The notes beneath the pieces are model-generated. The model searched no databases and was not told where the DNA came from. It was given only the letters and a program-made list of their open reading frames with translations. From NCBI GenBank assembly GCA_030390025.1, contig CM059432.1, positions 99,078,001 to 99,142,000 on the forward strand: a stretch of DNA of 64,000 nucleotides. Direction: 5' to 3'. Below, piece by piece: positions 18,595-52,395 of the stretch (position 1 is its first letter; every line of letters begins with the position of its first letter). The translations under genes and the position numbers were made by a program. Origin of the DNA: Squalus acanthias (lineage: Eukaryota).

Positions 18595-20374
18595 ATAGAC
18601 TGCTGAATGTTATTCAAGAGTTTTTAATCCTTTATACTTGTTTGCCTTCATTTTCTCTTGAATTGAGTATCAGAAAATTAATATTGTTGGGAGGGTTGGG
18701 CAGGGGGGGGGTGATATTTTCTTGGCAGTAATTTTAACACTGAGTGACCACTCTGTAGAAAATGAAAATTAAGGTATTAGGGTAGAACTTTTAATTGACG
18801 TAGCTGCTTAACTTGTTCATACTACATTTCTCCTTGCAGGCTTTTTAATAGACAATTTAACATCTGTATAAAATAATGCACACAGAATGTAATATGAGAA
18901 TGTTAAGCATTCATATGTTAACGTTGCCATTCTGAAGTTCTATCCTGTTGCATCATAGCAGTCACTCTTTATACCTATTCAGAAACTTCTAAATTGGATA
19001 TAATACAGTGATGAATAATTCAAAATTGGGGAGCTTAAAGATTCCATTCAGCCAGTTATTAAAAGACTGGACCCAATTAACTCTCGGCATGCTGCTACTT
19101 CCAAATTTAGCTAGTTACAAGGAGTGCTCAACTGGAATTGTAAGTCACAGTTAGATCAGGCCTTAATCTATGCTGGTAGGGCAAAGTTAGTTCAATAGAA
19201 TTAAAGATTAACAAAATTGTTGTGGAGATAAGCGGGAGTGTACACATCATTGTGATGTATATGGAGACATTATACATTAAGGTTGATGATTTTCCTTGTA
19301 CTGATGCACACTCCAATATTGAACCCTGACATTCTATTAGTGCATTGTTCTGAATGCACAGTCTATGTGGATTCAATTGCATCACAGACATGATGGAAAC
19401 AAAGTATTCTGTCGGGACTATTGACCTGAATATGTTAATGTTAGCAAGACCCAAAGGATAAAACAGAATCTCAAAGTTGCAGTTACATATTGGAAGATAA
19501 AAGTCATCATGCTGAAGAGTTTGCTTTACAAATACATTGGAATTGAAAGACTGGCACAGAGGGACATGAAGAAGGCACCAGAGAAGTTGGTAGAAAAATA
19601 AATGTCTCTTCCTTCAAGCACTAGAAATATATTACAGGTAAATAAAATATAAATGTTGATTTTAAAACTAATATTATGGTTTTCTCCACTAGACTCTGAG
19701 TTAAAGACTTGAAGTGAAAAGATGATTGGTAAAAAAGAAACATCTCTCGATAATGTTTGCAATGCCATAGCAATTCTCTGCAACATCCAAACAATATATG
19801 TAATAGATAAACATTGTAGTAAAAAAATATTTTTATGATATCACAGCCTACGACAGGTTTGCAAGTTCACTGTACTAAAGTTTGATTATTCATTTCTATT
19901 TACAGATTTATCAAAAAGTAGTTGTCAAACTTTGGTAGGACTTCCAAGACTTTAGGATAGACCTTAGGAGAAGTGGATCCTGGTTACAAACATCTCCCAA
20001 AGGAAAACCCTTTAGTTGACTCAAGAGATCTTGGAACAGCGACATCATGAAGGGTTATTGTTCCCCCCAATTATGTCAAAGCATGTTGCATAATGTTTTG
20101 CACTTTTGACCATATCAGTGCATATTGGATTAACATTTTACTACATTAAAGGCGCTATATAAATGCAAGTTGTTGTTGTTGGATATTCTCTGATTACACC
20201 CCGGCTTGCACATTTTGAATCATGTGATTAAGATGTTGGGAGATCAATGAAGGGACTAAAGTTGTTTTGTGTGTGTGATTTGTCCCTTAGTTTGTTGCTA
20301 TAATCCTATGACTTTATAATGTAGACCAGAGAAGATCAATGGAAGATCTACCAATTGATGTTGATGAGTCTTCC

Positions 20375-20575
20375 TACTGCTCTCCTCCTTTAAGATGCTT
20401 CTTAAAACCTACCTCTTTGATCAAGCATTTAGTCACCTATCCTAATATCTCCTTCTTTGGCTCAGTGTCAATTTTTCTCTGATTGTACTCCTGTGAAGTG
20501 CTTTGGGACTTTGAGTGATAAGATGATTGGGACTATGCTAAAGGCGTTAAATAAATGCAAGTTGCTGTTGTTGTT
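20375..20575 (+). mobile_element. L2 3' end fragment (another tail at ~20140-20180)
   Basis: cttaaaacctacctctttga...aaaggcgttaaataaatgcaagttgctgttgttg. Confidence 0.7.
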
Positions 20576-22701
20576 GCTTGATTGTACACTCTGAACTCCT
20601 GTACCTGGATAGCAGATATTTACTGGCTGTTGGTAGCTCCCTCCCATGTCTTCAAAATGCTTTAGTTGGCGATAGCAAAACTGGATAAAGCCATCTCCCT
20701 TGTGCAGGCAATGAGGAAATTATGTAATGTATTACTAGAGAGCATACAAACACTGTGATGGAGAAAAAATGTTGCAGATGCTATACAGGCAGACATTGAT
20801 ATCTTCAAGCAGAGCTGAGGAATATTTACAAAGGACTTTTCACATATATTTTAACTATTGCTTTTGACATACTGCTTTAAGTAAAGTTTATGCACCGTTC
20901 TTCCGGACTACTTTTACTGTACTGGGGGATATATGTAAAATAGTCTATATTTAAAGTGTACTGTACTACTGGAATTGCAGGGGCATTAGGGGTAAAATTT
21001 CTTTCTTGGGAATTAATTTGAACAACTTAATCATGATTTCTTCCACCCATGTTAATCATTTTTCCCAGGGCGCCAATGTCTCCTTGATGGACTTTAAGTC
21101 ATGCAAAACATGCAGAGCACATGAAAACAAAGCACAGGAAAAGACCATCTGATCCATCGAGCTTGTCCTATATCGTCATGATATAAGTTCTGCACACCCT
21201 TATTCACACAACTCCCACCATCTACCAATCACACAATCTCCTGGGAGAGAAATATATTTGGCCACTTTAAGAAAAATCTCTGGGAAATTCCTCTCTGACC
21301 CCTGAAGGTGATCAAATAAGTTCCAGGAGATCACAGTGGCTGGGAGACACATCCCTAAATACCTATCTACGTTTTATAAAATCAATCAACCAAACAATAT
21401 TGAGGTGGTTTATACATTTACTATAATGCTGTGGAGTTTGCGGAATTTTAGGTTTCATAAGGATCACATAGGTAACATTTATGTTCATCCCTTTGGAGTA
21501 GGCATTGTATCCTGTATTCTGAAAAGATTGGCCTTAAATTTTATGAAATGTTTAACTAAAATAAACAATCCAGACGTTGTGATGCGTGGTCTTCTCTCCA
21601 TCTTCTTAGCTCCATTTTGGAGCTACTACCACCAGCATATGAGTAATATTTACTCTCTGCATTTGCATGAATTAGAATATGAAATGTGTTTCAATGAGAC
21701 AGAAGATTTGAATAATTTCAACTATTTTCTGATTGTATAACTTGTCACTGGTTTGCAATAAGTGAAGGGACTTAACAGTGTAGGACCACCTGGAAGTCAA
21801 AATATTGTCCCATGAGGTTCATGGAACTTGTAATACATCATGAGATACTGCAGCCCCATAGAATATGTGATACAATAAAGTTAAAAAGAAAGATTATTTA
21901 TGTGCTATCTGTACTTTTCAAAAACTTAGGAAATTTGAATTCATCACACTTTACAACTAAAGGTAACTGAATTTCTGAGAAATCAATCATTGAGCCTTAA
22001 TTAACATTGGAGAATGGATACCAATGAAATTCTACACTTTTGTTTCCAGAAACAGTTCACATAGCTCAGAGAGGGGGGACAAAAGGAAAAGATTGATTTC
22101 TTGAGCTAGCAGAAATAGAGATAAATAGATGTATACTTGTGTGCGCTCCTGCTCTTTATATATTTCCTGTTCCAGTTTATTGTAAAGATACGAAAATATA
22201 CTTTTTCTCTTTTTTCTGAAAAAAGTAAAAGGTTCTTAAGCCTAGAAATTGGGTGGTTTATTGCCACCCGTTAATGCCATAATTGGGTGAAAAATATCAG
22301 CTGCCACTCTTCCGCTAGCTGGTAGTAGGTCCTGCGGCGGCCGCCATTTTAGGGTGGCCGGCAGTGCTGTCAATAGCAACGATTCTGAAAATCATTGAAA
22401 TGAAGCAGATCGTGGCGTCAATGAGTGTGCAACTGATCTGCGAGTTTGGACTTTGCCACTCCACTTACCGGCATGAGCTGAGCAAGCGTTGACAAGCACG
22501 AAGGAGGCTCCAGAAGTGGTATTTAAAGGGATCATCGGCAACCGCTTGCACCTGGCATGTTTGTTCAGTTTAACTGGCTCTGTGCAACTTTCTGCACCTC
22601 CAGCAGCTTTATTAACTTCTTTCAAGGTTCTAAGGTAACAGGGAGTGCTGTTGCAAGTGGAGAACACCTTCATTCTTATTACAAGGCTTCTGCTCACAGT
22701 C

Positions 22702-23878
22702 ATGAGGGCTGTACTGGCAATCCCCCTTGCGCTCGAGTATCTTCGGGAGAGGGAGCGGAGGCAGCGAAGCAGACAAGAAGATGAGCACAGAGGGAGGAGG
22801 AGGAGCATCAGGATGGCTCTCAACAGGAGGCCTTACCCACCTAGGGTCTTCAGAGAGCACTTCTCTTATATCCATTTAAGTGAGGAGTGTTGTATTAGGA
22901 GGCTACGCTTTACCAAGAAGGTGGTCACAGAATTCAGCCACCTTCTGCAACCAGACCTGCAGCCTGAGAGTAGGGCAAACAAGGCTCTCCCAGGGGCCCT
23001 CAAGGTCACCGTGGCCCTCAATTTCTTCGCCAGTGGATCCTTTCAGTCTGCAGCAGGAGACATAGCTAACATCTCCCAGTTCGCCATCCATTGCTGCACC
23101 CAGGAGGTCACTGAGGCTCTCTGCAGCAGTAGAAGGGACTATGTTTTCTTCTCTCTGAGCAGAGAGAAGCAGAATGAGCGCGCATGTGGTTTTGCCACGA
23201 TAGCGGGCTTCCCCATGGTGCAGAGCGCCATCGACTGCACACATGTGGCTTTGCGGGCGCCGTATAATAATCCTGACATGTTCCGTAACCGCAAAGGCTA
23301 CCACTCACTTAATGTGCAGTTGGTGTGCGACCACGCCCAGAGATTCATGATGGTCAATGCCCGCTGGCAGCAGCCATGATGCTTTCATCCTGTGTCAGTC
23401 CGGTTTGCCAGCACTCTTCCAGCCACCACAGCAAACTCGAGGGTGGCTGCTCGGAGACAAGGGTTATCCACTCTGCACCAGGCTCATGACTCCCCTCCGC
23501 AACCCCAACACTCCTGCCCAACACTCATATAACGAGAACCATGCTTCCACCAGGAACATCATCGAGCAGACCATCAGGCTACTGAAGCAATGGTTCTGCT
23601 GCCTTGATCATTCAGGTGGAGCCCTCCAGTACACGCCGGAGAGGGTGTTCCATTTTGTGGTGGTTAGTGGCATGCTTCACAACTTGGCCTTCATGAGGGC
23701 GTAGCCCTTGCCAGCAGGGATTGCGGGACCACCTCAGAAGGAGGACATGGGAGAGGAGGAGGAGTAAAAGGATGAGTAGCAAGAGGAAGAGGACGAGGAG
23801 GGAGGGAGGAGGCAGGCAGCCAATCCCCCTTCCAGACGGGCTGTACGTGAACGGCTCATCAGACTCCGATTCCAATGA
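22702..23878 (+). pseudogene. Harbinger (HARBI1-like) DDE transposase, frameshifted near 23365 and stopped at 23704
   Basis: Motifs 'RRLRFTK', 'LNFFASGSFQ', 'GFPMVQSAIDCTHV', 'NRKGYHSLNVQLVCD', 'GSSHDAFIL', 'LLGDKGYPL', '[15 protein letters not shown]' and 'LHN', followed by an acidic tail. Confidence 0.92.
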
Positions 23879-24156
23879 ATGAAACCACAGATCCCCATTG
23901 CTCACCACATCCCCATCGTACCATCCCTCTGTTACAGAATATCACAGCGTCCTCCTGGGCACAAAACTAGTAAATGGTGGGAGGAGGGCTTAGGTGGAAA
24001 TTGTAGTACAAATAATAGTTCAAAAACAAACAGAAAGGAAGAGAGTAGCGTAACAGTCAGAAATTGTGCTTTAGGCACTACAGGTGAAGGGAAAACTAAA
24101 AAATGTAAAGTGATTAAAGCAGGAAAGAGAAATAAGAAACATGTGAGTAAAACATT

Positions 24157-24885
24157 GGGCTAGAAATTGCAGTCGGAGGTATACTACCGGAGTATGCCTC
24201 CGACCCACGAAAGAATTAAGAAAGTACCTGCTGGGGGCCAGGCGGCGAAAACTTGTGGACTCAGGCCTTGAGGTGGAGGGCAGCGTAATGGCCCATGGAT
24301 CCCAGGGAAGCAGGCGATGTGGAAACGTATCTGGGCCTGGTCCTCCAATCAATAAGCAAAATTCAATTTCAATCATTTGCAAAGGGAATTCCCTAAAGAA
24401 ATGCAATGGAATCCCCAAATAAATATATAATGTACAGAATTGGAATTTTATTCATAATTACCTTCACTCCACCAATCTCACTGAAAAGTTAACTTTTTGA
24501 TAATTTTATACATCATTAAAACTATAATCTGGGCCAATATTTGCATAAACTCATTTCATAATTTAGGCTATGAAAATGTTTAATTAAAGCCTTAGCTATT
24601 CCCTTACGCTGATGCAAACAGGCCCTGTGCCTGCTTACTTCAACCATAAGACTTTGTGCGCAATCACTGGCCAGTTGGTGGCCAAATAGCCCAACTCTGC
24701 ACCAACGATTGCTTTCTCATGGCCCCCGCAGGTGGCCTGTCAAGGTGCTCGTTGACAAGCTGCAAGTTCTAGATTTTGCGTATGTGCAAGCGCATGCAGA
24801 AACCCCAAACTTGCAGGGCATTTCAAAGGGAATACGATGGCATACTCTGATAGTACACCATCATACACACCACAATTTCAGGGCC
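24157..24885. mobile_element. Harbinger-type MITE (family C) in CR1
   Basis: Ends gggctagaaattg / caatttcagggcc with TSD ATT. Subterminal hairpin 24172-24204. Confidence 0.8.
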
Positions 24886-26383
24886 ATTAGAGCTGAAGGA
24901 CAGGCTAAGGTGTGTGGCCCAAATAAGCGTTCTTTATACAAATGCACAGAGTATAAGGAATAAATTGAATGAACTGCAGGCGCAAATTCAAATTGGAGGG
25001 TTTGACATTGTAGCCATTACTGAGACATGGCTGCAAGATGGTCAGGACTGGGAACTAAATATACCAGGTTATAAGGTCTACATGAAGCATAGGGAAAATG
25101 GTAGAGGGGAGTAGTAGCCTTAGTGATTAAGGATGAAATCACTCAATGATAAGAGAGGATATAACGAGAGGTAAGCAGGCAGTGGAGACTTTATTGGTAG
25201 AATTAAGAAAACTGGAAAGGATTTAAGACTGTAGTGGAAGTTGTGTATAGGCCCCTTGGTGGCAGCTGTGAAATGTTAGATTGTATAAATGCAGAGATTA
25301 GACAAGTGTGTAGTAAAGGCAGAGTGGTTTAATGGGGGTTTTTAACTTTCATATAGATTGGGATAAGCAGACTAGCACCTGTCAGAAAGGTAGCGAATTT
25401 CTTGAGTGTGTCCAGGATAGGGTTTTCTACAACAATATGGTCTAGAAGCAACAAGGGGGCATGCCATATTAGATTTAGTAATGGGTAATGAGCCAGATTT
25501 AGTTAACAGCCTAACATTGTGTGAAAATTTATCCAATAGCGATCATAATATGATCGAGTTCAACATAATGCTTTAAAGGGAGAAACGCAATTTAGATAAG
25601 GCCGACTTCAACGGGATGAGACAGACACTGTCCACAATAAACTGGCCAAATCTGTTAATGGGTAAAACGACAGAAGATCAGTGGGAGATGTTCAAAAAAA
25701 ACAGATTATTCCCCTGAGGAGCAAGAGCTCTACTTGTCAAAAAAAACAGCCATGGACGACTGAAGAGGTAAGGGACAGTATAAAACTAAAGGAAAAAGCA
25801 TACAAAAATGCAAAAAATAGCACAGATGCTGGTGAATGGGAAAGATACAAAGAACAGCAAAGGGTGACAAAACAGATAGTAAGAGCTACAAAAAGGGAAA
25901 ATGAAAAAAACTTGCAAGAAATATCAAAATCAACACAAAAATTCTTACAATTGTATTAGGGAAAAAAGGGTAATCAGAAGCAATGTTGGCCCCTTAAAAA
26001 CTGATAACGGTGATATTGTCAATGATAATAAGGAAATGGCAGACATGTTGAATAATTACTTGGCATCAGTATTTACAGTAGAAGAAGAGGATAGCATGCC
26101 GAAAATCCCAAGGAAAGGAATATTGAATCAAAATAACAGTAATGAAGAAAATAATGGCACTAAAGAGTGACTAATCCCCAGGACCAGATGGTTTCCAGGG
26201 TTTTAAAGGAAGTAGGTGAGCACATTGCCCTAACCATAATCTCCCAAAGTTCTCTCAATTCAGGAACCGTTTCTTTAGATTGGAAAATTGCGCATGTCAC
26301 TCTGTTATATAAGAATGGCAAGAGAGGGAAAAAATTGAGAGGTCGCACAACACCAGGTTATAGTCCAACAGTTTTATTTGAAA

Positions 26384-26421
26384 TCACAAGCTTTCGGAAC
26401 TATCGCTCCTTCCTCAGGTGA
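26384..26421 (-). ncRNA. Minimal type I hammerhead ribozyme motif
   Basis: Reverse complement reads tcac-CTGAGGA-aggagcgatagttcc-GAAA-gctt-gtga. Confidence 0.8.
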
Positions 26422-26755
26422 AGTAAATTGGATACAGAATTGTCAGAGCATATATAGATGGAAAAAAAAGCATGTGTACTTTACAATTGCAGACCAATAA
26501 ATTAAATCATCCTGACTATCTGCCGAGGTGTGATAAAGTTAATTAAGTCAGCCAGGAAGGTACCACATCAAAAGACATAGCAAGATACAACTGAGACAAT
26601 GAGGTGAAGTCGCAGGGGTTCTAACGTGTCAAAAGCTGCCGTCTGTATGTAAAACGAAAAGCTTTAAAAAAAAATTTACTTTTTTACTGGGAAAATTTTT
26701 ACTTTTTTACTGGGAATCACATCTGTGAACAAGCTAACGACGACTCGAGTCCGGA

Positions 26756-28091
26756 TCACGTCATGTATCGTGACATAAACCCAAGATCTCGATTGAGACC
26801 GTCTTCATGAGTGCAGAACTTGGCTATCAGTTTCTGCTCGATGATTTTGCGTTGTCGTGTGTTTCTAAGGTTGCCTTGGAGAACGCTTACCCGCAGATCC
26901 GAGGCTGAATGTCCTTGACTGCTGAAGTGTTCCCCGACTGGGAGGTAACAATCCTGCCTGGCGATTGTTGCGCGGTGCTCGTTCATACGTTGTCTCAGTG
27001 TCTGCATGGTCTCGCCGATGTACCATGCCGCGGTGCATTCTTTCCTGCAACGTATGAGGTAGACAACGTTGGCCGAGTCACATGAGTATGTACCATGTAC
27101 CTGGTGGGTAGTGTCCTCACGTGTGATGGTGGTATCTGTGTTGATGATCTGGCATGTCTTGCAGAGTTTGCCATGGCAGGGTTGTGTGGTGTCGTGGTCG
27201 CTGTTATCCTGAAAGCTGGGTAATTTGCTGCGAACGATGGTACTTCTGAGGTTAGGCGGCTGTTTGAAGGCAAGTAGTGGAGGCGTGGGGATGGCCTTAG
27301 CGAGGTGTTTGTCGTCATCGATGACATGTTGAAGGCTGCGAAGAACATGTCGTAGTTTCTCCGCTCCGGGGAAGTACTGGACGACGTAGGGTACCCTGTT
27401 GGTTGTGTCCCGTGTTTGCCTTCTGAGGAGGTCTATGCGATTTTTCGCTGTGGCCCGTCGGAACTGTCGATCGATGAGTCGAGCGTCATATCCCGTTCTT
27501 ACGAGGGCGTTTTTCAGCGTCCGTAGGTGTCCATCGCGTTCCTCCTCGTCTGAGCAGATCCTGTGTATTCGCAGGGCTTGTCCATAGGGGATGGCTTCTT
27601 TAACATGGTTAGGGTGGAAGCTGGAGAAGTGGAGCATCGTGAGGTTGTCCGTGGGCTTGCGGTAGAGTGAAGTGCTGAGGTGTCCGTCTTTGATGGAGAT
27701 TCGTGTGTCCAGGAATGAGACCGATTCTGAGGAGTAGTCCATGGTGAGTTTGATGGTGGGATGGGACTTGTTTATGTTATCGTGTAGTCTTTTCAGTGAT
27801 CCTTCGCCATGGGTCCAAAGGAAGAAAATGTCGTCGATGTATCTGGTGTACAGCGTTGGCTGGAGGTCCTGTGCAGCGAAGAAGTCTTGCTCGAACTTGT
27901 GCATGAAGATGTTGGCGTATTGGGGTGCGAATTTGGTCCCCATGGCTGTTCCGTGTGTTTGGGTAAAAAAATGGTTGTCGAAGGTGAAGACATTGTGGTC
28001 AAGGATGAAGCGGATGAGTTGTAGGATGGCGTCTGGAGATTGGCTGTTGTTGATGTTGAGTACTGAGGCTGTTGCAGCGATGCCGTCATCG
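26756..28091 (-). CDS. 5'-truncated but uninterrupted Penelope RT + Cys-rich linker + GIY-YIG endonuclease
   Basis: 'GTAMGTKFAPQYANIFM', 'RYIDDIF', 'LYRKPTD', 'CHGKLCKTC' and 'NVVYLIRC...WYIGET...RMNEH'. The first ~20 aa of the ORF-track call come from the inverted arm. Confidence 0.92.
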
Positions 28092-28551
28092 CTTTCAGGA
28101 TAACAGCGACCACGACACCACACAACCCTGCCATGGCAAACTCTGCAAGACATGCCAGATCATCAACACAGATACCACCATCACACGTGAGGACACTACC
28201 CACCAGGTACATGGTACATACTCATGTGACTCGGCCAACGTTGTCTACCTCATACGTTGCAGGAAAGAATGCACCGCGGCATGGTACATCGGCGAGACCA
28301 TGCAGACACTGAGACAACGTATGAACGAGCACCGCGCAACAATCGCCAGGCAGGATTGTTACCTCCCAGTCGGGGAACACTTCAGCAGTCAAGGACATTC
28401 AGCCTCGGATCTGCGGGTAAGCGTTCTCCAAGGCAACCTTAGAAACACACGACAACGCAAAATCATCGAGCAGAAACTGATAGCCAAGTTCTGCACTCAT
28501 GAAGACGGTCTCAATCGAGATCTTGGGTTTATGTCACGATACATGACGTGA
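28091..28551 (+). CDS. Duplicated Penelope GIY-YIG endonuclease segment (partial)
   Basis: Translation is identical to the C-terminus of the minus-strand ORF. Confidence 0.85.
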
Positions 28552-28885
28552 TCCGGACTCGAGTCGTCGTTAGCTTGTTCACAGATGTGATTCCCAGTAA
28601 AAAAGTAAAAATTTTCCCAGTAAAAAAGTAAATTTTTTTTTAAAGCTTTTCGTTTTACATACAGACGGCAGCTTTTGACACGTTAGAACCCCTGCGACTT
28701 CACCTCATTGTCTCAGTTGTATCTTGCTATGTCTTTTGATGTGGTACCTTCCTGGCTGACTTAATTAACCTTATCACACCTCGGCAGATAGTCAGGATGA
28801 TTTAATTTATTGGTCTGCAATTGTAAAGTACACATGCTTTTTTTTCCATCTATATATGCTCTGACAATTCTGTATCCAATTTACT

Positions 28886-28923
28886 TCACCTGAGGAAGGA
28901 GCGATAGTTCCGAAAGCTTGTGA
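28886..28923 (+). ncRNA. Minimal type I hammerhead ribozyme motif
   Basis: tcac-CTGAGGA-a-ggagc(gata)gttcc-GAAA-gc-tt-gtga. Helix I is tcac/gtga; helix III is reduced to the palindrome AAGCTT. Confidence 0.8.
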
Positions 28924-30047
28924 TTTCAAATAAAACTGTTGGACTATAACCTGGTGTTGTGCGACCTCTCAATTTTGTCCACCCCAGTCCAACACCGGCA
29001 TCTCCGCATCAAGAGAGGGAAACCCAGGGAATTATAGACCAGTTAGCCTAACATCTGTTGTCGGGAAATTACTAGAGTCTATAATTAAGGATAGGGTGGC
29101 TGAACACCTCAAAAATTTTCAGCTGATCAGAGAGATCCAGCATGGATTTGTGAAAGGTAGGTCATGCTTGACAAACCTGATTGAATTTTTTGAGGAGGTG
29201 ACTAAAGTAGTGGGCAGGAGAATGTCTATGGATGATATTTATATGGACTTCCAGAAGGCATTAGATAAAGTCCCTCGTAAGAGACCATGGAATTGAAGAC
29301 AAATTATTGACCTGGTTAGGAAATTGTTTGAGTGGCAGGAGACAGAGTGTAGGGATAATGAATAGGTATTCTAATTGGCAGAATGTGACTAATGGAATCT
29401 GTGTTGGGGCCTCAACTATTCACATTATTTATTCACGACTTAGATGATGGCATAGAAAGCCATATATCCAAATTTGCCGATGACACAAAGATAGGTGGCA
29501 TCGTCAGCAGTGTAGATGAAAGCATAAAACTATGGAGAGATATCGATAGATTAAGTGAATGGGCAAAACTGTGCCAAATGGATTTCAATGTAGGCAAAGG
29601 TGAGGTCATCCATTTGGACCTAAAAATGATAGAACAGGGTACTTTCTAAATGGTGAAAAGCTAAAAACAGTGTAGGTCCAAGGAGACTTGGGGGTCCAGG
29701 TACACAGATCATTAAAATGTCATGAACAGGTACAGAAAATAATCAAAAATGCTAATGGAATACTAGCCTTTATATATAGAGGACTAGAATACAAGGGGGT
29801 AGAAGTTATGCTGCAGCTGTACAAAGCCACACCTGAAGTACTGTGAACAGTTCTGGGCACCACACCTTAGAACGGATGTATTGGCCTTGGAGGGAGTTCA
29901 GCATAGGTTTACCAGAATGATACATGGACACCAAGGGTTAAATTACGAGGAAAGATTACACAAATTGGGCTTGTATTCCCTACAATTTAGCAGGTTAAGG
30001 GGTGATTTGATGAAGTTTTCAAGATGTTAAGGGGAACAGATAGGGTA

Positions 30048-30239
30048 TCACACAGAATCACAGAATCCCCACAGTGCAGATAGAGGCCATTTCGGCCCAT
30101 CGAGCCTGCACCGACACATATCCCACCCTATCCCCGTAACCCCACGTATTTAATCCCCCTAACACTAAGGGTCAATTTATCATAGCCAAATCAACCTAAC
30201 CCGCACATCTTTGGACTGTGGGAGGAAACCGGAGCACCC
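30048..30239 (-). mobile_element. 5'-truncated HE1/V-SINE-like SINE
   Basis: V-domain-like gtgggaggaaaccggagcacccg and a CR1-type tail. Apparent TSD gggta. Confidence 0.7.
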
Positions 30240-30348
30240 GGGTAGATAGAGAGAAACTATTTCCGCTGGTTGGGGAGTCTAGGACCAGGGGGCATAGTCT
30301 AAAAATTAGAGGCAGACCTTTCAGGAGTGAAATTAGGAAACACTTTTA

Positions 30349-30470
30349 AGGCTACGGACCAAGTGCTGGAAAATGAGATTAGAATAGATAAGGGCTTGAT
30401 GGCCGGCGTGGACACAATGGGCTGAAGGGCCTCTTTCTATGCTGTATAAATCTATGACTCTATGACTCTA
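30349..30470 (+). mobile_element. Short CR1 3' UTR insertion with (ctatgact)n tail
   Basis: gggctgaagggcct...ctatgactctatgactcta, flanked by tttta duplication. Confidence 0.65.
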
Positions 30471-31090
30471 TTTTACACACAAAGGGTGGTAGAAGTTTGT
30501 AACTCTCTTCTGCAAATGGCAATTGATGCTAGATCAATTGTTATTTGAGATTGATAGATTTTTGTTAACCAAAGTTAGTAAGGGATATGGGCCAAAGGCG
30601 GGTATATGGAGTTAGGTCGCAGATCAGCCATGATCTCAATAATTGGCGGAACAGGCTCGAGGGGCTAAATGGCCTACTCCTCTTCCTATGTTCCTATGGA
30701 AGGAGAGACACCACAAAAGATTCCGAACACACTTCATAAAATGATCAAAATTCACTTCACACATATTTACAGCAACAATATGAACTAATCACCCTTGTGC
30801 AATTCCTTAGTGCCTATCGTTCGTGTGCCTTTTCCTACTCTAGTGCTCCTACAAAGTGCTCCCCAGGTGGCTGCAACATGGCTGGTGGAAGGCTGCTGAG
30901 TTTCTATGGGGGAGACTACAGATAGCCTTGCAGGACAACCTCGAGCAGCTCTGGCCCTAGAAGGCCCGGCTGCAGACTGCACCACCTCGGCATGGGTGGC
31001 AGCAGTCTGGTCTGGCTGGCTGACAGGCAGCAGCAAGGGCAATGGTGGTACGGCATTAGTGGGCAAAGGAATGCTGTCATCCTGAGAGAG

Positions 31091-31303
31091 TGAGAAGTCA
31101 CACAACACCAGGTTATAGTCCAACAGCTTTATTTGAAATCACAAGCTTTCGGAGCGCTGCTCCTTCGTCAGGTGAAGTGACTTCACCTGACGAAGGGGCA
31201 GCAGCTCCGAAAGCTTGTGATTTCAAATAAAGCTGTTGGACTATAAACTGGTGTTGTGCGACTTCTCACTTTTGTCCACCCCAGTCCAACACCGGCATCC
31301 CCG
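31091..31303. mobile_element. Miniature palindromic Penelope derivative with hammerhead motifs on both strands
   Basis: ~90-bp arms centred on 31179. HHR motifs at 31139-31175 (-) and 31183-31220 (+). Nearly the same tail as 28977-29009. TSD catcctgagagag. Confidence 0.92.
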
Positions 31304-32576
31304 CATCCTGAGAGAGGACAGCAGGGTCCTGCGCCACTGACCCACTGCCACTCCTCTGGGGTGGCACCTCAGCATTTCTAGCAATCTGTTGGAGCACACA
31401 TTGCTGGGCAGCTGCGACACCCTGCTAGCGCCGGTCGACAGTGGTAAACCCAGCCACGATGGCAGCAGGGTGCTTGGGTGGCATCAAGCAGAGACTACAT
31501 GAGAGCGGTCTGCGCTTCCGCTGCAGCACTTAGACATTGGGTCGCTTCCACCTGTGCTGCAATGGCAGACGCGACATCGCCCATCATGTGCCATTACGGC
31601 TGGGTCAACACGGTCTCTTCGGGAGTCTTCCATCTTTTCCAGCCTGGAAATCATGAGCTCCAAGCTCTGCACAGAGCCTCATGCAATGTTGGAGGCAAAC
31701 TCCTCCACGCTTCTTGACATTGCCATGAGGCTCTGTGGCAGGCTTGCCATTGCACCTATAAATTCGGTGTGCATGTCCATCACCCTTCTTCTGAAGGCTG
31801 TCCCATTGAGGTCCTCATCTGAGTCCTGTGCAGCAGAACTCTCGCGCGAACTCACCCCCGAGCTACCTTTTCCCCCTGGCCTTGCTGCAGCCCACTCGTG
31901 CCCGGTGCCTCACCCTGTGCAGATCCTGTTACTGCACTACCCTCTAAAGTATGCATAGTGCCAGTTTCTGAGCTGGTGTCAGCGAGTGACAGATGCAGCG
32001 ATGCAGTGTCTTCTTCTTCCTCTTCTTCTCCCCCCTCGCCCTCTTGCATCATCTTGGGGATAGGCTGGTCCAGTGCCTGCTGTTTATTATCTGAAAGCAG
32101 AAAGGCACAGGGGTTGGGTTATGGTGAGGAGATGGTACGGGGATGCAGATATGCATGCATACAGCATCAGCTGCTTAAAAATAAGAAGAGGTTGTTGGAT
32201 GAGGGGGAAGTGGGATGTGAGAAGAAGGATTAGGAATGACCATACCATTGTTGTTCCCAGGGGTTTCAACCTCGCCGGTTGCCACGGCCTTTACGATCTA
32301 CTGCCCAATGATCTGCGGAACTCTCTCCTCCAGCTGGCTGAGGTCCTGCATGTCAGCCTGCCCCTGCCTGTCTGCTGTTGCTCCCTCTGGTTGTGAGCCA
32401 CCTTGGCCTGCAAGACAAAGGGAAGTGTGTGTGTGAGTGCGGTGCAATGTGTTTGGGTGATGTGCCTGCCATAGTTGAATAGCTGTCAGTGTGTGCAGTG
32501 TGTGAGTGAGTGTTGCAGCAGTGGTAAGGTTGTGAGGGTGAAGTGAAGCTATGATTGTGAGGTGTGAGGGGTGATA

Positions 32577-33040
32577 AAGAATGACTTGCATTTATATAGC
32601 GCTTTTCACGACCACCGGACGTCTCAAAGCGCTTTACAGCCAATGAAGTACTTTTTGAAGTGTAGTCACTGTTGTAATGTGGGAAATGCGGCAGTCAATT
32701 TGCGCACAGCAAGCTCACGTAAACAGCAATGTGATAATGACCAGACAATCTGTTTTTGTTATGTTGATTGATGGATAAATATTGGACAGGACACCGGGGA
32801 TAACTCCCCTACTCTTCTTCAAAATAGTGCCATGGGATCTTTTACATCCACCTGAGAGAGCAGACAGGGCCTCGGTTTAACATCTCATCCGAAAGACGGC
32901 ACCTCCAACAGTGCAGCACTCCCTCAGCACTGCACTGGAGTGTCAGCCTAGCTTTATGTGCTCAAGTCCCTGGGACTTGAACCCACAACTTTCTGAGTCA
33001 GAGGCAAGTGTGCTACCCACAGAGCCATGGCTGACACCGC
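32577..33040 (-). mobile_element. Deu-domain SINE in intron 1 of the Myb gene
   Basis: Close reverse-complement match to 3111-3560. Possible TSD tgata. Confidence 0.88.
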
Positions 33041-33549
33041 TGATATGTAGAGATTGTTGGTAGGTGAGTGATGGGGGTGAGGTGCATTGAGCAGTGTGTG
33101 AGGCTTGTGGTGCAAATGGTGGGATATGGAATTTGCTGAAGCCTTCACTCACCTTGATCACCCGTGTGAGGTCATTAAACTTCTTTTGGCACTGGATGGC
33201 TGACCTTGGCACTACTGAGCTGGCTGTTACATGTGCGGCTATCTCCTGCCACATCCATTGGGAGGTGTATGGCGAGGGCTTCCTTCTAGCCTGGGGGAAG
33301 AGGACAGCCCGCCTCCTCTCCACGGCCACAACCAGTGCCTCCAGAGCTGCTTCCGAAAATCTCCTGGCTCTCTCCCTTTGAGGATGCTCTGCCATGGCTT
33401 TGGAGATCCTTTCTCTTACTCTTCCTTCTTCTTCTGCTTCTTCTTCTTTGGTGTACAGTAGTCAGTTTCTTAATAAATTAAATATGTTGCAATATTTAAA
33501 GCATGTTAAAAGATGCCTTTTAGCGTCCTTGTGTGTAAAAAAAACCCTT

Positions 33550-34293
33550 GGCCCAAAAATTAGTCTTAGTACGCGAGAGTACGCACTGTGTACTCTCGCG
33601 TATTCTGTCTCCAATTGCCGGTTTCCAGCATGCATTGCGCATGCGCTGAAAACCGGCACTTGATGAACTGAAAAGGGGGCGGTTCCTAGGTGAACCGCGT
33701 GCGCGCTACAGGCTGTGCGCACGCAGTGCACTTAGTGCTTTGAACGCGCAGGTAAGCATGGAAGATTTTGCACATAAAGAAAGGAGGCGTAAGACCCTCT
33801 TTTAACAAGGTAAGTAGTTAATTAAGTATTATTTTAAATTTTTTTCAACAGGTTTATCTTTTTTAGAGACTTTAAAGAAAGGTAAGTTTATTTTTATAAC
33901 TTTTAAAAAGATTTTAAATTTTTTCTAAAATTTAATTTTTTGTTTAAAGTGGTTAATTTATTTAACTATACTTATTTTATTAATGTGATGGTTTTTAAAA
34001 AAAAATTAAATGAGGTTTAGCTGTTCTCTTGGGGGGGTATAGATTCATAGCTTTGACAGCCCTTGCTGTCAAAACTATGAATGAAAGATGGTGTGCTGCC
34101 ATTGGCTCTAACTGAATCACGTGATCCCACAGCGCGCACGAATTAACTGCGTCTGTGGGATACGCACACACTGCACAGCTGCAGCCTTGAAACTAAAGTT
34201 CGTGTGAGCTCGGAAGGAAAAGGCAGGCGCGCAGTGAGATATCGCGGGGAAGTCTTACCCCCGCAGGAAGGCTCCGTCTTTAATTTCTGGGCC
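33550..34293 (-). mobile_element. Harbinger-type MITE, diverged family-B member
   Basis: TIRs ggcccaaaaatta / taatttctgggcc with TSD CTT. Collinear with 38185-38947. Confidence 0.85.
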
Positions 34294-36044
34294 CTTAATT
34301 TTAAGAGCCTCCTCGAAGGCCAGCAACCGGGCACAATTGGCGGAAACTCGCTGTACTGATTAATTCGACCCGGGCGCATGCTCAGTTTTGTGGGTGGGGC
34401 TAGCTTCCAGCCGATATTTTTTAAACTAGGGTAAAAGATCGCGGAATCTCAATTCGTGCTGGACGTAATTTGCGCTTGAAATTCACGATCATTTGCTCTG
34501 GTTTGGCCAAATTTGGGTGAATTGCGTTGGAAAAAAGAGTGTAACCTAGGCCAAAACTCCAGGCCAATGTTCTTATTTAATACATTTTCCAATCGTTTCT
34601 CTCTCCGCCACCCCGCCGCCAACACACACACAATCTACCTCAGTAACAAGTGTGTGACTGTCCAAGGTTCAAATATCACTATGGGTACTGCAGCATTGAT
34701 TCTTGGTTGACTTTTTAAGAGTAATTACAAAATGGTATTGGGAGAATTTCTGCACTCCTAAGTACTTTATTCCCCCTTCTGCTCCTTGCAGAATGCAACC
34801 AATCCTCTGAGGCTTATGTCCAATGGTGTCTAAGTATCGTGGCTGAGATTTGAGCTTAATTTCCAAGTCTAATCTAGTGCTGTGGTATTGTAGCTACTCA
34901 GCTGCTTCTTCGTGTAATCTTCTTCTAAAGAAAGATTCCAATATTGCTAGGATGTGCCTGGCCTTCATTTTAATATATTTTATACTATCATGGTGCCTGT
35001 ACCCTGAACTTTATAATGTCACAGTATGTAATGTGAGATAACTTTAATTGAGCTATCCAGCACCGGTAGTAAAGGTTATCTCACAAACAGTTTTACTTGA
35101 AATGTTTTACCTATTATTAACTTCGTGAGGAAGCCAAAGGAAAATCTCTCAGCAAAATAATTTCATGGATATGGGATTATAAATGTGCGTGACACTCATA
35201 CTGACAGGCACAATTATGTGCATAGGATTGATAATATAATCAGGAACTGCAAGTGGAGCCATAGGAGAAATTATATTCCAAGTACTTAGGTCTGACATCT
35301 TTTTATATATATTTCTTTTCAATGAGGCACAGAAATGGCCTTTACTGTTTCTGTTCTTATTCTGGTGGATGCAACCTGGGACATCTAGAAATTCAATAGG
35401 AATGCCATTAGCTACAGAACTACTTACTTATGAATTCTTATTAGGTCCAGAGTTTCATCCTCTGCACTTTTACAGAGCTCAGCCATGTAAAGGCTGACTC
35501 AGTGAGTTGTAAAATACTGCATGTATGCAACTGATTCAGGTCACAGGGCTAGGACAATTTGCTAAACTGTGAAATTTAGTTGCGTCTGTTAGATATTATT
35601 TTCACTCGATCATGAGTTATTAACACTTTAATTTCTGATGAAAAAAGAAACTGAAGCCTCCACAATGATTTAGTGAGTAAGTGAACCATCTTGTGTCACG
35701 CTTGGCCATACAGATCAGAAAGAACAATTTGACTGACCTCAGCATTTCCAGGATAAGAAGGGAAAAGGGTTAACTGAGGCTTTCTCTTCTGACCACTGTT
35801 CAGTGTGCTCCATTGGAAGTGTGTAGGTATCAATGTTGGAAGAAGGTTGAACTAAACCCAACTTCAATCACCCCATCAGTTGGACCACTTACTCATACTC
35901 CCTAACTGCACATGAATAATGGATAACTTCTCTATCATGGAATCAAGCCCACTCAATCTTAAGGGATAGTTCTACAAATGTTCTCCAATTCCCAAAGGCA
36001 AGTTGAATATCTCCATGCTGAATTATTCCTTCAATTTCTTTGTG

Positions 36045-36152
36045 ACGTTTCAGGTCTGACAAAAGGTCATCGACCTGAAACGTTAACTCTGTTTCTCTCA
36101 CTCCACAGATGCTGCCTGACCTGCTGAGTATTTCCAGCATTTTCTGTTTTTA
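36045..36152 (+). mobile_element. Penelope-like family-2 3' fragment with mutated hammerhead core
   Basis: ctgacaa-aaggtcatcgacct-gaaa-cgttaac...gatgctgcctgacctgctgag. Preceded by a 12-nt inverted piece, acgtttcaggtc. Confidence 0.7.
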
Positions 36153-37129
36153 TCCTAAATTTACATTGTGTGCCCATTTGCTGCCCAAGATCTGCTCCAC
36201 CCCATCACCCATTTGCTTAACAGGAAATGAACCAGGAGCAACAAGCACAGTGCTCACTACAGGCTCGATTTGTGCACACTCAGTCAGACTGGACTAAAAT
36301 TCCAGGTCCACGTCCTCCATTATGGAAACAAAACTTGCCTTTTATTTCAATACCAAACACCAAGCCAGTGACTTGAATTAACAGCACCATTAATGGCGGA
36401 GGCAGCTGGCACAAGAGAAATGGAGAAATACACAGGACCCTGAGCGACTTGACCCACCCGACCTCATCGCCATTAATCCTTTAGTGACAAAGGCAGCCCC
36501 CCTCTTTCCTCCTGCCCAACCCTTTCACAAATAGCCGGCGGTACTTCAAAGGACACGAGCTCCCAGACTAGGCTGATCCATCCACCAGAGAAACACATGG
36601 CCATGAATATAAAGCTCCAAGTCCGAGGTAGGAGGTAAATCGTGATAACGCCTGCTGCTATTTTATTAACTCAGATTGAAGATATTGAAGGACAGAGTCA
36701 CACCGGATCCTGATTATTACTGCCTTGCCACAGGCCCAGAGACTGGAGAGTCTCTTTCTTTCCTTCCCCGTCCCCCATCAATGCCACATGGTATGTATTG
36801 ACGCCACTTTTTCAAATGGCGAGCGGCTTCCAATCAACACGGCGGTTCCGCACGAGTGGAAAGAAAAAGCTTGAAAGGAAGGCTCGTGCTACCTCGACCC
36901 ATGCAACGCTGGACTAACGCATGGATTTCTCCACCCCAACTCAGGTTTCAATCCCCCGGAAGAGAGGTTATAACTCCCACTATTTTATTTAATAGTTAAA
37001 AGCGGCGAGTGGTTTATGAACGTGGAAGCAATTAGAGCTGGATCAAAAGAAAAACTACCGAGATAAATACCGTTGTAAAAGTCAGTAAGATGCAAAGGGA
37101 CTTGTCTAAGTATTCAAATGGTGTCCAAC

Positions 37130-37243: not shown

Positions 37244-37496
37244 TCAACAACAGGAAGAACCTGAATTGACTGTGCGTGCACAGTCTTAGCTGAGACTATT
37301 CCACTTGTCTCAATATACAGGGGAGACTACTGATGTTTATGCCATAAACATCAGTAGCCTCCCCTGTATATTGATTGGACAAATCAACTGGTGGACCCTT
37401 GAAATCTTCTCGAGCTCCCACCCCCGGTTGAGAAGCCCTGACGTATGGTAATAAAAGCTGAGTTGATTGGTTTAAGCAAACAAAAGATGAACAGTA

Positions 37497-37955
37497 AATA
37501 CTAGAAATACTCAGCAGGTCAGGCAGCATCTGTGGAGAGAGAAACAGAGTTAACGTTTCAGGTCGATGACCCTTCGTCAGAACTGGAAAAAGTTAGAGAT
37601 GGAACAGGTTTTTAAGCAAGTGCAAGGGCAGGGAAAGGGGGAAGGGGAGGAAAGAACAAAAGGGAAGGTCTGTGATAGGATGGAAGGCAGGAGAGATTAA
37701 GAGACAAAAGGGATGATGGTGCAAGGCAAAAGCAGATGGTAATGGGACAAGTTAAGAAACAAAAGATGACTCTAAACCCTATACTTGCTTAAAAACCTGT
37801 TACATCTCCAACTTTTTCCAGTTCTGATGAAGGGTCATCGAGCTGAAATGTTAACTCTGTTTCTCTCTCCACAGATGCTGCCTGACCTGCTGAGTATTTC
37901 CAGCATTTTCTGTTTTTATTTCAGATTTCCAGCATCCGCAGTATTTTGCTTTTGT
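37497..37955. mobile_element. Inverted-arm Penelope-like family-2 insertion with hammerhead motifs on both strands
   Basis: Arms 37497-37621 and 37783-37907; tail 37908-37955. 15-bp TSD aaaagatgaacagta. HHR motifs at 37548-37584 (-) and 37820-37856 (+). Confidence 0.85.
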
Positions 37956-38184
37956 AAAAGATGAACAGTACCAGTTTGAATTTCCCAATGGGGTATTAGT
38001 AGCAATGAAATAATTAATTGGTTTTACTGCTCAGAAGTCCATGATTATAATTGTACTTTCCGATTCCGTTTTTATTTACAAGAATAAAATAAAGTGTGTG
38101 TTGCTTTGGCAAAGCAATCATGTTAGCCCTAAATAGATACTTTTAACATCTTACTATTTTGAAAAACACTTAAAAAAACACATT

Positions 38185-46700: not shown

Positions 46701-47870
46701 GGCCAGGTTTAGATAAAGAGATAGAGTACATAGTCAGTCAGCATACAACATGTCAATCGGTGAACAAGAAGCCACCATCAGTACCACTACAGCCATGGAA
46801 ATGGCCTCCCAGAGTGTGGCAAAGGTTACATGTAGATTTTTTTGAGCTAGAAGGACAGCAATTGTTCATAGTGATAGATAGTCACTCGAAGTGGGTAGAG
46901 GTGTTTCCGATGCGGATAATAACAAGCAAAACAATTTGCGAAGATTGTTTTCTTCATACGGCCTCCCAGAAGAAATTATGTCCGATAATGGGCTGCAATT
47001 TTGTTCAGAAGAGTTCACATAGTTCATGAACAAAATGGTGTGAAACGTACCAAGGTTCCACCGTACCACCCTGTTTCAAATGGTGCAGCAGAGCGCACAG
47101 TACAAATTGTCAAACGTGCCCTGATCAAGCAAATGTTGGATCCAAATCCAAAGAAACATCAGTTGTCATTGGACCACAAACTGGCAAATTTTCTGATTAC
47201 CTATCGGAATACTCTTCATACCACTACTGGTAGGAAACCAGCAGAGTTGTTTCTCAAATGACAGCCACGAACCAGGTTCTCGTTGTTAAAGCCAAACTTG
47301 GCACAGTTCGTAGAAGAGAAACAATCAAAGCAGAAAGAGAGTCATAATAAAGGCAGAGTTAGAGAGAGAAGTGTGACGTTGAACCAGAAGGTTAGAGTGA
47401 AGAACCATCACCATAAATGGTTAAAGTGGTTACCAGGAAGAGTAGTGAAGATATGTGGCCCTCGCACATATTTGGTTAAGATGTTTGATCATGGAAAGGT
47501 TAGGTTTGTTCACATTGATCATATCTTACCTACAGATGTGGAAGGAGTTGAAAGCTGGAATGATTCCATTTATTCTGTTGAGTCAGATAGTCTTGTTGCA
47601 AGTAGAGAACCAGAAGCAAATCCTACATCAGACGTACCAGAAACAAGTCCAAGACAAAGTCAGAATTTAAGTCTGAGCCTGAGTCAGGCAGACAAACAGT
47701 CTGAAAGTGTAAAGAGTCCAAATGTAGATCAAGGTCAGCCCTTGGAGAAAACTTCTCCTCAGGCTCAGCCTAGAATGAGCCAAAGTCCTACAACAAGATC
47801 TGAAAGTTCTGTTCAAGAAAAAAGGTATCCTCTTCAAAACAGAAAACCAGTGGTTAAGTTTAATCTGTAA
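43764..47870 (+). pseudogene. Gypsy gag-pol with multiple stops and frameshifts
   Basis: Two CCHC knuckles (CYRCLGQH...C, CYNCKKTGH...C). Protease 'IDTGAS'. RT 'RLPFGV...YLDD'. RNase H 'CDASPYG...TDHKPL'. Integrase 'LHVDF...SNGAAER'. Confidence 0.93.
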
Positions 47871-51620: not shown

Positions 51621-52068
51621 AATCATTAAGATATTTGCAGACCCCTTTAACTCACTAGCTATACCACATGGGTGTCAATGTCTGTTCTGGTGCTTGGAAG
51701 GGTGAGAACAAGTGGTGGCACATCTTTGGGTGGGTTCTCACTCTCAAGAGAGTGTCGTTAGCACTGTAGCTCACCAATTCAGTTTAAATGAGGTCAGACC
51801 GTAAAAATTGCTGAGGCCCCCCACTGACCTCATCAGATGGGTGGAGGGGATGCCCCGTCCATTGACTGCCTAACATATGCAATATACAAAATTGACTCCC
51901 ACTCTGTTTTCAATCTCGCCCATTGTTTCACTTTTTCCTTGGGAGTGCCTGCCATTGCTTTAGCTATTTGTTTCTCCAACACGTTTTATTTCTTTAATGC
52001 TTTTGTTTTCAATTGCCTGAGTGGGATGATACTTTATATCATTGAACAATCATTCCACCAATACTAAT

Positions 52069-52395
52069 ACAAAAAGAAAATACTGCAGATGCTGGAAATC
52101 TGAAATAAAAACAGAAAATGCTGGAGATACTCAGCAGGTCAGGCAGCATCTGTGGAGAGAGAAACAAAGGTGGATGACCTTTCGTCAGAACTGGAAAAAG
52201 TTAGAGATGCTACAGATTTTAAGCAAGTGCAGGAGCAGGGAAAGGGGGGAGGGGAGCAAAGAACAAAAGGTGAGGTCTGGAGGGTGGAAGGCAGGAGTGA
52301 TTAAATGACAAAAGGTATGATAGTTAAAAGCAAAAGGAGATGGTAAAGAAGCAAAAGATAATCTAGAAGAGGTGCAAATGGGAATGGCAGAATTT
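52069..52395 (-). mobile_element. Penelope-like family-2 3' fragment with tail; hammerhead partly deleted
   Basis: Matches the tail, arm and spacer of 37497-37955. Confidence 0.8.

What the first reader, a model, noticed from the sequence alone, without database searches (positions are those of the whole stretch)
31078..31316. ~215-bp non-coding palindrome carrying a hammerhead ribozyme on each strand
Seen: two ~90-bp arms meet head-to-head around a 1-nt centre (ggtgaagt-g-acttcacc). A tail follows, and the unit sits in a 10-13 bp TSD inside a Harbinger Myb exon. Each strand reads tcac-CTGACGA-[helix II]-GAAA-gctt-gtga. Arms and tail match the 3' end of the Penelope 2 kb upstream, but differ at the variable core position (CTGAGGA vs CTGACGA) and in helix II while keeping its pairing. 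Known: Penelope-like elements carry minimal hammerheads whose palindromic helix III allows dimeric cleavage. Inference: this is either a minimal product of Penelope integration or a non-autonomous, bidirectional ribozyme element. Transcription from either side would give a ribozyme sequestered in a long hairpin.
Basis: partly seen in the sequence, partly recalled or inferred. Interest (0 to 1): 0.75.

Follow-up and report, generated by a model that had tools for sequence, protein, structure and literature searches.

The report
Minimal two-ended Penelope-like insertion stub
This 217-base mirror-image sequence is two back-to-back copies of the ribozyme-bearing end of an abundant Penelope-like jumping gene, likely built afresh when the enzyme copied two RNAs from both cut DNA strands; its ribozymes are predicted to be locked inactive, so it is a known kind of insertion scar that hints at how these elements integrate.

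Summary
The palindrome, both minimal hammerhead motifs, the tail and a 13-nt flanking repeat are real. It is the smallest version of the published Penelope-like element (PLE) layout: tail-less inverted copy + direct copy with tail + target duplication. Two more insertions of that layout (2.7 kb, 0.46 kb; two families) lie within 7 kb. In public contigs, near-symmetric joins make up about 0.4-2% of family depth, with at least five different centres; the two deepest listed are not this one. The two arms differ at positions that are common family variants, which points to two template RNAs rather than a fold-back. The joins cluster at a predicted transcription start (TATA-like box at -30 to -32, initiator A), and the two deepest centres are what two cDNAs ending at a capped 5' end would give by annealing (post hoc). 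Folding predicts both ribozymes are sequestered (about 61 kcal/mol penalty). A self-propagating family is not supported but not excluded. The scan reported such stubs before on other DNA, mostly with the same verdict.

The parts
31078..31090 (.). Left copy of 13-nt target-site duplication (last 2 nt shared with inverted end)
   Evidence: empty-site loose ends, table 7
31091..31178 (-). Inverted, tail-less copy of the PLE end module; minimal type I hammerhead core starts at 31171 on the minus strand (helix II with 3-nt loop)
31179..31179 (.). 1-nt centre G; either templated by the base upstream of the left arm's source (C on its sense strand) or cap-derived
   Evidence: loose-end consensus before 31180 ends in C
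31180..31270 (+). Direct copy of the module starting at the predicted +1 A; hammerhead core 31187-31193, extra A, helix II 31195-31208 (4-nt loop), GAAA, AGCT palindrome, predicted cut after 31216
31271..31307 (+). Tail present on one side only (boundary +/- 3 nt); closes a predicted helix around the tail-less end
31304..31316 (.). Right copy of target-site duplication (first 4 nt shared with the element's 3' end)
26319..29022 (.). Context: 2.7-kb PLE insertion of the same layout (minus-strand 5'-truncated RT + GIY-YIG ORF 26756-28159, tail-less; direct copy 28091-29010 with tail; 13-nt duplication), inside a LINE RT remnant
37482..37970 (.). Context: 0.46-kb non-coding insertion of a second PLE family, same layout, 15-nt flanking repeat
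30785..33461 (-). Host: decayed Myb/SANT gene region of a multi-copy Harbinger-type element (transposase remnant 22639-23704 on +)

Best explanation
The palindrome is two head-to-head copies of the hammerhead-bearing end module of an abundant Penelope-like retrotransposon inside a 13-nt target duplication, likely built afresh during one insertion in which the enzyme primed DNA synthesis from both cut strands on two separate RNAs. Steps: (1) inferred from Frangieh 2024: the RT-endonuclease cuts both strands about 13 nt apart; (2) inferred from the same paper: one strand is primed at the end of the tail, the other about 35 nt further in, which gives tail on one side only (layout shown); (3) inferred: both use the copy of the module at the 5' end of the transcript, so both cDNAs run off after about 128 and 90 nt at a start site on the first A of the hammerhead's helix I (motifs shown, start site not shown); (4) inferred: the two cDNA 3' ends anneal or are joined with 0-6 nt overlap, giving a small set of recurring centres (centres shown); (5) predicted: any transcript through the locus folds into a 90-bp hairpin and neither hammerhead forms. 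The stub is a dead-end scar, not a unit that copies itself.
For: Same layout in 3 of 3 inverted PLE insertions in the window, at 2.7, 0.46 and 0.22 kb, two families, duplications of 13, 15 and 13 nt; layout published (PMC3846280, PMC8557442) and two start sites with both strands cut and extended shown in vitro (PMC11167929). Depth left of the centre, where only centre-crossing contigs can lie, is 9,885 vs 1,609,231 on the arm in X1 and 3,314 vs 826,280 in X5. Five distinct near-symmetric centres counting this one; in X5 listed other forms explain all but about 70 of 3,314 depth units (55% of that run read). Arm differences at 31197 and 31203 are common family variants: A at 31197 in 49% (X1) and 65% (X5) of depth; 3-nt loop in 28 + 23 contigs (X1, gap + loose end) and in 5,565 of 6,599 depth in organism B, which fits two templates. 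Initiator plus TATA-like box 30-32 nt upstream of the equivalent A in 4 of 4 copies tested, two families; background 37 of 127,880 positions. The two deepest listed centres are 2 of only 4 that terminal-paired annealing of +1 or +1-plus-cap-C ends can give, out of 41 blunt joins possible between -1 and +8. Asymmetric joins also exist, the deeper ones mostly with 3-4 nt microhomology (table 5). Hairpin: P(helix I, II) = 0.00 on both strands, penalty about 61 kcal/mol.
Against: Some centres are deep (single contigs of 2,600 and 2,507 in X1, 1,450 and 1,358 in X5, against 13-40 for ordinary contigs), as a propagating family would also give. In X1, 4,373 of 9,885 centre-crossing depth units are not accounted for by listed variants and could include exact copies of this centre. 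Depth sums are not copy numbers; tables were cut (54 joints, 48 differences, 711 loose ends not shown). The annealing rule and the TTAAAA box were chosen after seeing the data; 2 of the 4 predicted centres were not among the listed rows; this locus's own centre needs a mixed pair (+1 cap with -1) or a blunt join. No transcription start was measured; D. virilis Penelope has a TATA-less internal promoter (PMC2377424). The module did not match N-termini of 120 full-length homologues, so its 5' position in the mRNA rests on analogy. The 2.7-kb neighbour's arms differ at only 1 of 886 positions, which fits fold-back as well as two young templates. Later gene conversion could also make arms unlike.
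Confidence: 0.68

Rival explanations
1. Fold-back (self-priming): one cDNA stops near the start of the hammerhead, snaps back and is copied into the mirror arm, as proposed for junction palindromes in rotifer PLEs.
For: Centres of 0-2 nt are nearly symmetric; Arkhipova 2013 reads junction palindromes as self-priming; arms of the 2.7-kb copy differ at 1 of 886 positions; a 12-nt fold-back-like piece precedes a second-family copy at 36048.
Against: Arms of this locus differ at two positions that are frequent family variants, unexpected if one arm was copied from the other; spacers of 874 and 161 nt in the other two insertions are not simple hairpins; fold-back does not by itself explain why the inverted arm ends about 35 nt short of the tail in all three.
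Confidence: 0.14
2. Non-autonomous propagating family: read-through RNAs of whole palindromes are re-copied by the PLE enzyme; two cDNAs that each cross the centre are mutually complementary, so the palindrome would regenerate with its centre.
For: A few centres reach depths tens to hundreds of times that of ordinary contigs and recur in organisms A and B; four contigs of the run guessed to be RNA cross a near-symmetric centre (table 8); pLTR sequences can act in trans.
Against: At least five centres plus many asymmetric joins; the stub lacks the predicted promoter upstream of +1; near-symmetric joins are only about 0.4-2% of family depth; in X5 about 70 depth units remain for this exact centre; a 90-bp hairpin would hide the module that the enzyme must bind (inference).
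Confidence: 0.13
3. A working bidirectional ribozyme or retrozyme-like unit: the two hammerheads cut and release a small or circular RNA.
For: Both cores are intact and helices I-III covary between the two families in the window; one asymmetric join (31176 to 31217; depth 594 and 938) starts at the predicted cut site.
Against: The motifs are on opposite strands, so no RNA holds two sense ribozymes; hairpin suppresses both; triplet is CUU; minimal PLE hammerheads are inactive as monomers and weak as dimers, the anole one needs protein and is dispensable in vitro; the join at 31217 also has 4-nt microhomology.
Confidence: 0.05

Closest known systems
Inverted-pLTR insertions of endonuclease-bearing Penelope-like elements (Pen2a_Av, Pen2_Av of Adineta vaga, PMC3846280, passages read; general scheme in PMC8557442 Fig. 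2 legend, passages read)
   Same: Inverted 5'-truncated copy head-to-head with a direct copy, 30-40-nt tail at one end only, target duplication, TATA and initiator motifs in the pLTR, palindromes at the junction.
   Different: No ORF or spacer left: both arms are cut back to the hammerhead's first bases; arms appear to come from two subfamily variants; duplication 13 nt rather than 8-10.
Minimal hammerheads of metazoan PLEs (Cervera and de la Pena 2014, PMC4209133; parts 1-2 of 4 read)
   Same: Type I, 4-bp helix I, extra nucleotide between 9 and 10.1, G10.1-C11.1, palindromic helix III; the paper already notes pairs of such motifs 100-700 bp apart on opposite strands.
   Different: Here the two cores are 16 nt apart and helix II is 5 bp (7-8 bp in the schistosome families).
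Poseidon element PAc of Anolis carolinensis (Frangieh 2024, PMC11167929; parts 1-2 of 4 read)
   Same: Two internal start sites bracket the tail; both strands cut and extended; hammerhead just upstream.
   Different: This family has a Neptune-type CX4CxxC linker; the paper does not describe product joining or short palindromes in the parts read; here 1-4 nt microhomologies with the target are seen at both ends.
L1 twin priming and cap-derived 5' G (PMC2912911, passages read)
   Same: Two primed cDNAs anneal at a short complementarity; a reverse-transcribed cap adds a G at full-length 5' ends.
   Different: L1 primes twice on one RNA at non-overlapping places, so nothing is duplicated; here both arms cover the same 90 nt.
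Animal non-LTR retrozymes (PMC7229834, passages read; bioRxiv 10.64898/2026.07.22.740005, parts 1-2 of 5 read)
   Same: Short, non-coding, type I hammerhead, PLE-derived.
   Different: Retrozymes are head-to-tail tandems with same-strand ribozymes and circular RNAs; this is head-to-head with one ribozyme per strand.

Membership tests
EN+ PLE inverted insertion | Sequence derives from the end of an RT + GIY-YIG element | tested here: met
   91.4% over 128 nt to the end of the 26327-29010 element, whose ORF hits RVT_1 and GIY-YIG, both just under Pfam's cut-offs, and 155 long RT homologues at E<=1e-20
EN+ PLE inverted insertion | Inverted 5'-truncated copy head-to-head with a direct copy | tested here: met
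EN+ PLE inverted insertion | 30-40-nt tail at one end only | tested here: met
   about 35-37 nt, 31271-31307
EN+ PLE inverted insertion | Target-site duplication | tested here: met
   13 nt, single in empty sites
Neptune clade (parent family) | CX2-5CxxC linker between RT and endonuclease | tested here: met
   CHGKLCKTC 37 aa before the GIY-like motif; 107 of 120 listed homologues have such a motif; definition from PMC8557442, where Nematis shares a linker motif
Neptune clade (parent family) | RT phylogeny | not tested
   no labelled reference set at hand
Minimal PLE hammerhead | CUGANGA / GAAA / UH core with paired helices I and II | tested here: met
   all 4 helix I pairs change on both sides between the two families (TCAC/GTGA vs AGTT/AACT)
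Minimal PLE hammerhead | Extra nucleotide after position 9, G10.1-C11.1, palindromic helix III | tested here: met
   extra A, G-C, AGCU (ACGU in the second family)
Minimal PLE hammerhead | Self-cleavage as a dimer | not testable with these tools
   needs an assay; cofolding two units did not give the dimeric hammerhead as the lowest-energy form
Non-LTR retrozyme | Head-to-tail tandem units with at least two same-strand hammerheads | tested here: not met
   one core per strand, head-to-head; criterion from the bioRxiv paper
Non-LTR retrozyme | Circular RNA intermediate | not testable with these tools
   only contigs were available
Propagating non-autonomous PLE family | One junction shared by most copies | tested here: not met
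   five centres, the deepest listed differ from this one
Propagating non-autonomous PLE family | Copies with one centre form clades with shared derived changes | not testable with these tools
   no whole genome held; contigs give no full copies

The most novel reading that the evidence does not exclude
PLE integration is two-ended and makes strong-stop-like cDNAs: a dimeric enzyme primes both cut strands on the 5' copy of the module of two different RNAs, copies each to its cap, and the two cap-extended 3' ends anneal to close the insertion. The commonest stub centres would then be a direct sequence record of the transcription start, of cap copying and of the unknown second-strand step; a minority of stubs might then regenerate themselves because two cDNAs that cross a palindromic centre are mutually complementary.
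Probability: 0.3. Interest if true: 0.62.

Novelty: new member of a known kind. Interest (0 to 1): 0.32.

Why it matters
As an object it is ordinary: a known PLE insertion layout at minimal size, one of likely hundreds to thousands in this genome. Its value is as a read-out of mechanism. How PLEs finish integration and why they form head-to-head repeats with a one-sided tail is still open (stated in PMC8557442 and PMC11167929, passages read). If arms come from two RNAs and centres record a capped 5' end, the stubs give a cheap genome-scale test and a precise in vitro prediction. Such hairpins would also be ready double-stranded RNA for editing enzymes, as shown for 200-bp palindromic repeats in frog (PMC5625713, passages read).

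Tried and rejected
No whole genome held, so copies could not be collected. Rfam, 22000-36000 at E<=5: 6 matches, none a hammerhead; the two miRNA hits on the palindrome (39.7 and 36.2 bits, gathering 93 and 80) only reflect the hairpin. A conserved 19-nt module motif gave 0 matches in metagenome and 0 in viral contigs. No RNA holder listed on record; X17 is only guessed to be RNA, so its centre-crossing contigs show nothing about expression. Look-up of earlier findings by sequence: 0; by words on cap and annealing: 0. Module vs N-termini of 120 homologues: no credible match. Host exon piece vs longer proteins: 0 of 596 candidates at E<=0.001. Harbinger terminal repeats not found between 19500-22700 and 33400-35200. 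Cofold of two 46-nt units prefers swapped helix II pairing or monomer-like folds over the dimeric hammerhead; nearest-neighbour models lack the core's tertiary energy, so this decides nothing. Long unique contigs that start 1-2 nt before 31180 (table 8) were not used as evidence of a cap G, because the table favours pieces lengthened by chance matches. Left-bin depth (616,000 in X1) was rejected as a measure of centre crossing: single arms can lie there (X6 drops from 681,000 to 27,000 across the centre). Miniature DNA transposon rejected: inverted repeats are not terminal (one-sided tail) and the sequence is a PLE end. Six paper searches (open-licence library only) showed no paper on shark PLE palindromic stubs or on cap-anchored joining in PLEs; Arkhipova 2006 and Lunse 2017 (recalled) were not seen, and supplements were not opened (the junction figures S1-S2 of PMC11167929 may bear on the joining step).

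Full report
Observation. The unit is as described. The left arm (31091-31178) and right arm (31180-31268) are reverse complements with three substitutions and a 1-nt indel, around a single G. A tail of about 35-37 nt follows the right arm only, ending at 31307, where 101, 71 and 13 contigs of runs X1, X5 and X17 go on into unrelated DNA. A 13-nt direct repeat flanks it; other copies of the host repeat hold that 13-mer once, so it is a target duplication, with 4 and 2 nt of microhomology to the two element ends. A scan of both strands of the window for a minimal hammerhead (core, paired helix II, paired 4-bp helix I) gave 5 cores, all in PLE ends, two of them here. Rfam has no matching model.

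What it belongs to. The right arm and tail are 91.4% identical to the last 128 nt of a 2.7-kb element at 26327-29010, whose ORF has RT and GIY-YIG domains (both just under Pfam's cut-offs), many long RT homologues and a CX4CxxC linker typical of the Neptune clade (definition; no tree built). That element has the same plan: a tail-less minus-strand copy, a plus-strand copy with tail, and a 13-nt duplication. A third insertion, from another family, at 37482-37970 repeats it with a 15-nt duplication. So 3 of 3 inverted PLE insertions seen in the window share one plan at 2.7, 0.46 and 0.22 kb; two further second-family pieces (36048, 52068) have no full inverted partner. The plan is published: inverted truncated copy, one-sided 30-40-nt tail, duplication (PMC3846280; PMC8557442), and opposite-strand pairs of minimal hammerheads 100-700 bp apart were noted in 2014 (PMC4209133). 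Earlier notes of this scan call the genome shark-like; I did not test that.

Shared or private junction. No genome was held, so I laid public contigs of 4 of the 20 listed runs on two stretches. Depth sums are not copy numbers, but ordinary contigs lie at about 13-40. Listed indels resolve into four other centres, two of them seen in both orientations: 5 nt shorter (18,455 + 5,435 in X1; 2,721 + 2,251 in X5), 2 nt shorter (2,600 and 2,507; 1,450 and 1,358; 139.5 in X6), 2 nt longer (205; 161) and 1 nt longer (199). In X5 these and the listed pieces leave about 70 depth units for this locus's own centre, in the 55% of the run that was read; in X1 4,373 units stay unexplained. No listed piece crosses the centre without gaps and with fewer than two differences. 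Asymmetric joins with one arm ending in the same zone sum to 2,066 (X1) and 2,529 (X5) over the 12 such rows among the 15 shown (54 more not shown), against 26,796 and 6,480 for near-symmetric ones. So there is no single family junction, but joins pile up at one spot.

Why that spot. Tested here: the A at which the right arm starts corresponds to 28883 in the long copy, which fits the initiator YYANWYY with TATATA at -32; the second family has an initiator A at the start of helix I with TTAAAA at -30 or -31 in 3 of 3 copies. The combination occurs at 37 of 127,880 positions of the window (19 with strict TATAWA); the looser box was chosen after looking. Rotifer pLTRs have a similar TATA and initiator pair; D. 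virilis Penelope instead has a TATA-less promoter, though its transcript also starts inside the upstream repeat. If an mRNA starts there, it carries the module twice, at both ends. Priming on the 3' copy gives arms that run on upstream (the 2.7- and 0.46-kb cases); priming on the 5' copy gives cDNAs that run off after about 128 and 90 nt. Enumerating overlaps in which both terminal bases pair, ends at +1 with or without a cap-derived C give only four centres, and the two deepest listed ones are among them (6-nt overlap with 4 pairs, or 4-nt with 2; and 3-nt overlap with 2 pairs), out of 41 blunt joins possible between -1 and +8. The 2-nt-longer centre reads as two cap-extended ends plus one added base. 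Cap copying and annealing of two cDNAs are known from L1 (PMC2912911). This fit is post hoc, two predicted centres were not among the listed rows, and this locus's own centre needs a mixed pair or a blunt join.

One template or two. The arms differ at 31197 (G vs A) and in the helix II loop (4 vs 3 nt). Both alternatives are common in the family: A at 31197 in 1,105,810 of 2,250,433 (X1) and 658,447 of 1,019,626 (X5); the 3-nt loop with A in 28 gap-aligned and 23 loose-ended contigs of X1 and in 5,565 of 6,599 depth in organism B. By contrast the difference at 31247 is private (98% of depth in X1 has the other base) and 31259 is a CpG. Two arms that each match a common variant are more simply explained by two source RNAs than by a fold-back followed by two coincident mutations; later conversion from another copy remains possible. 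This fits the in vitro finding that the anole enzyme, predicted to be a dimer, cuts and extends both strands and starts at two sites that bracket the tail (PMC11167929). In both families here the tail closes a predicted helix around the tail-less end.

Ribozyme. The motif meets the published description of minimal PLE hammerheads: extra base after position 9, G10.1-C11.1, palindromic helix III; helix I and III change compensatorily between the two families, so the motif is selected in the parents. In the stub it is predicted to be dead: on either strand the antisense arm is made first, the sense arm pairs with it, helix I and II probabilities are 0.00 and forcing them costs about 61 kcal/mol. 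Even alone the two arms mostly misfold (helix II 0.09-0.11 and 0.00, vs 0.82 in the long copy). No RNA holds two sense ribozymes, so it fails the retrozyme criterion.

Host. The insertion lies in a 137-codon open stretch on the minus strand downstream of a Myb/SANT ORF of a multi-copy Harbinger-type element whose upstream part already has stops and frameshifts; the exon status was not confirmed and no effect on the host is expected.

Verdict. Real, ordinary in kind, and reported by this scan at least eight times on other DNA, mostly as afresh-built stubs; one note on a 2.3-kb perfect palindrome prefers fold-back. Shown here: layout, duplication, several recurring centres, arm variants, motifs. 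Inferred: two-strand priming, transcript start, cap copying, annealing, ribozyme inactivity. Confidence 0.68 for an afresh two-ended product, 0.14 fold-back, 0.13 propagating family, 0.05 working ribozyme unit. Interest 0.32; 0.62 if the capped two-cDNA mechanism (probability 0.3) holds.

Noticed in passing
window 26319-29022: Young 2.7-kb PLE insertion (arms differ at 1 of 886 positions; open 467-codon RT + GIY-YIG frame; Neptune-type linker) inside a LINE RT remnant; same layout as the finding.
   Followed up: yes
window 37482-37970: Second-family PLE stub with two hammerheads on opposite strands, 161-nt spacer, 15-nt flanking repeat; the + strand ribozyme has decayed (failed the scan).
   Followed up: yes
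window 52068-52400 (-): Second-family copy with tail, a 12-nt deletion through the hammerhead's GAAA and no inverted partner found by BLAST.
   Followed up: partly
window 36036-36153: Second-family tail-less copy that starts at the hammerhead core and is preceded by a 12-nt inverted piece of its own helix II/III region.
   Followed up: no
   Followed up: partly
window 31216: About 14-15% of family depth in organism A has C instead of T at the predicted cleavage base (CUC rather than CUU), a change that keeps the NUH rule.
   Followed up: no
window 31180-31185: Family members carry several unrelated sequences upstream of the hammerhead's first bases while the downstream 128 nt are shared, so the module's 5' edge is also a subfamily boundary.
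   Followed up: partly
window 22639-33461: Harbinger-type element with convergent transposase (+) and Myb/SANT (-) remnants, holding nested LINE and PLE insertions; another Myb/SANT ORF at 54586-55194 and an integrase zinc-binding ORF at 46322-47029.
   Followed up: no
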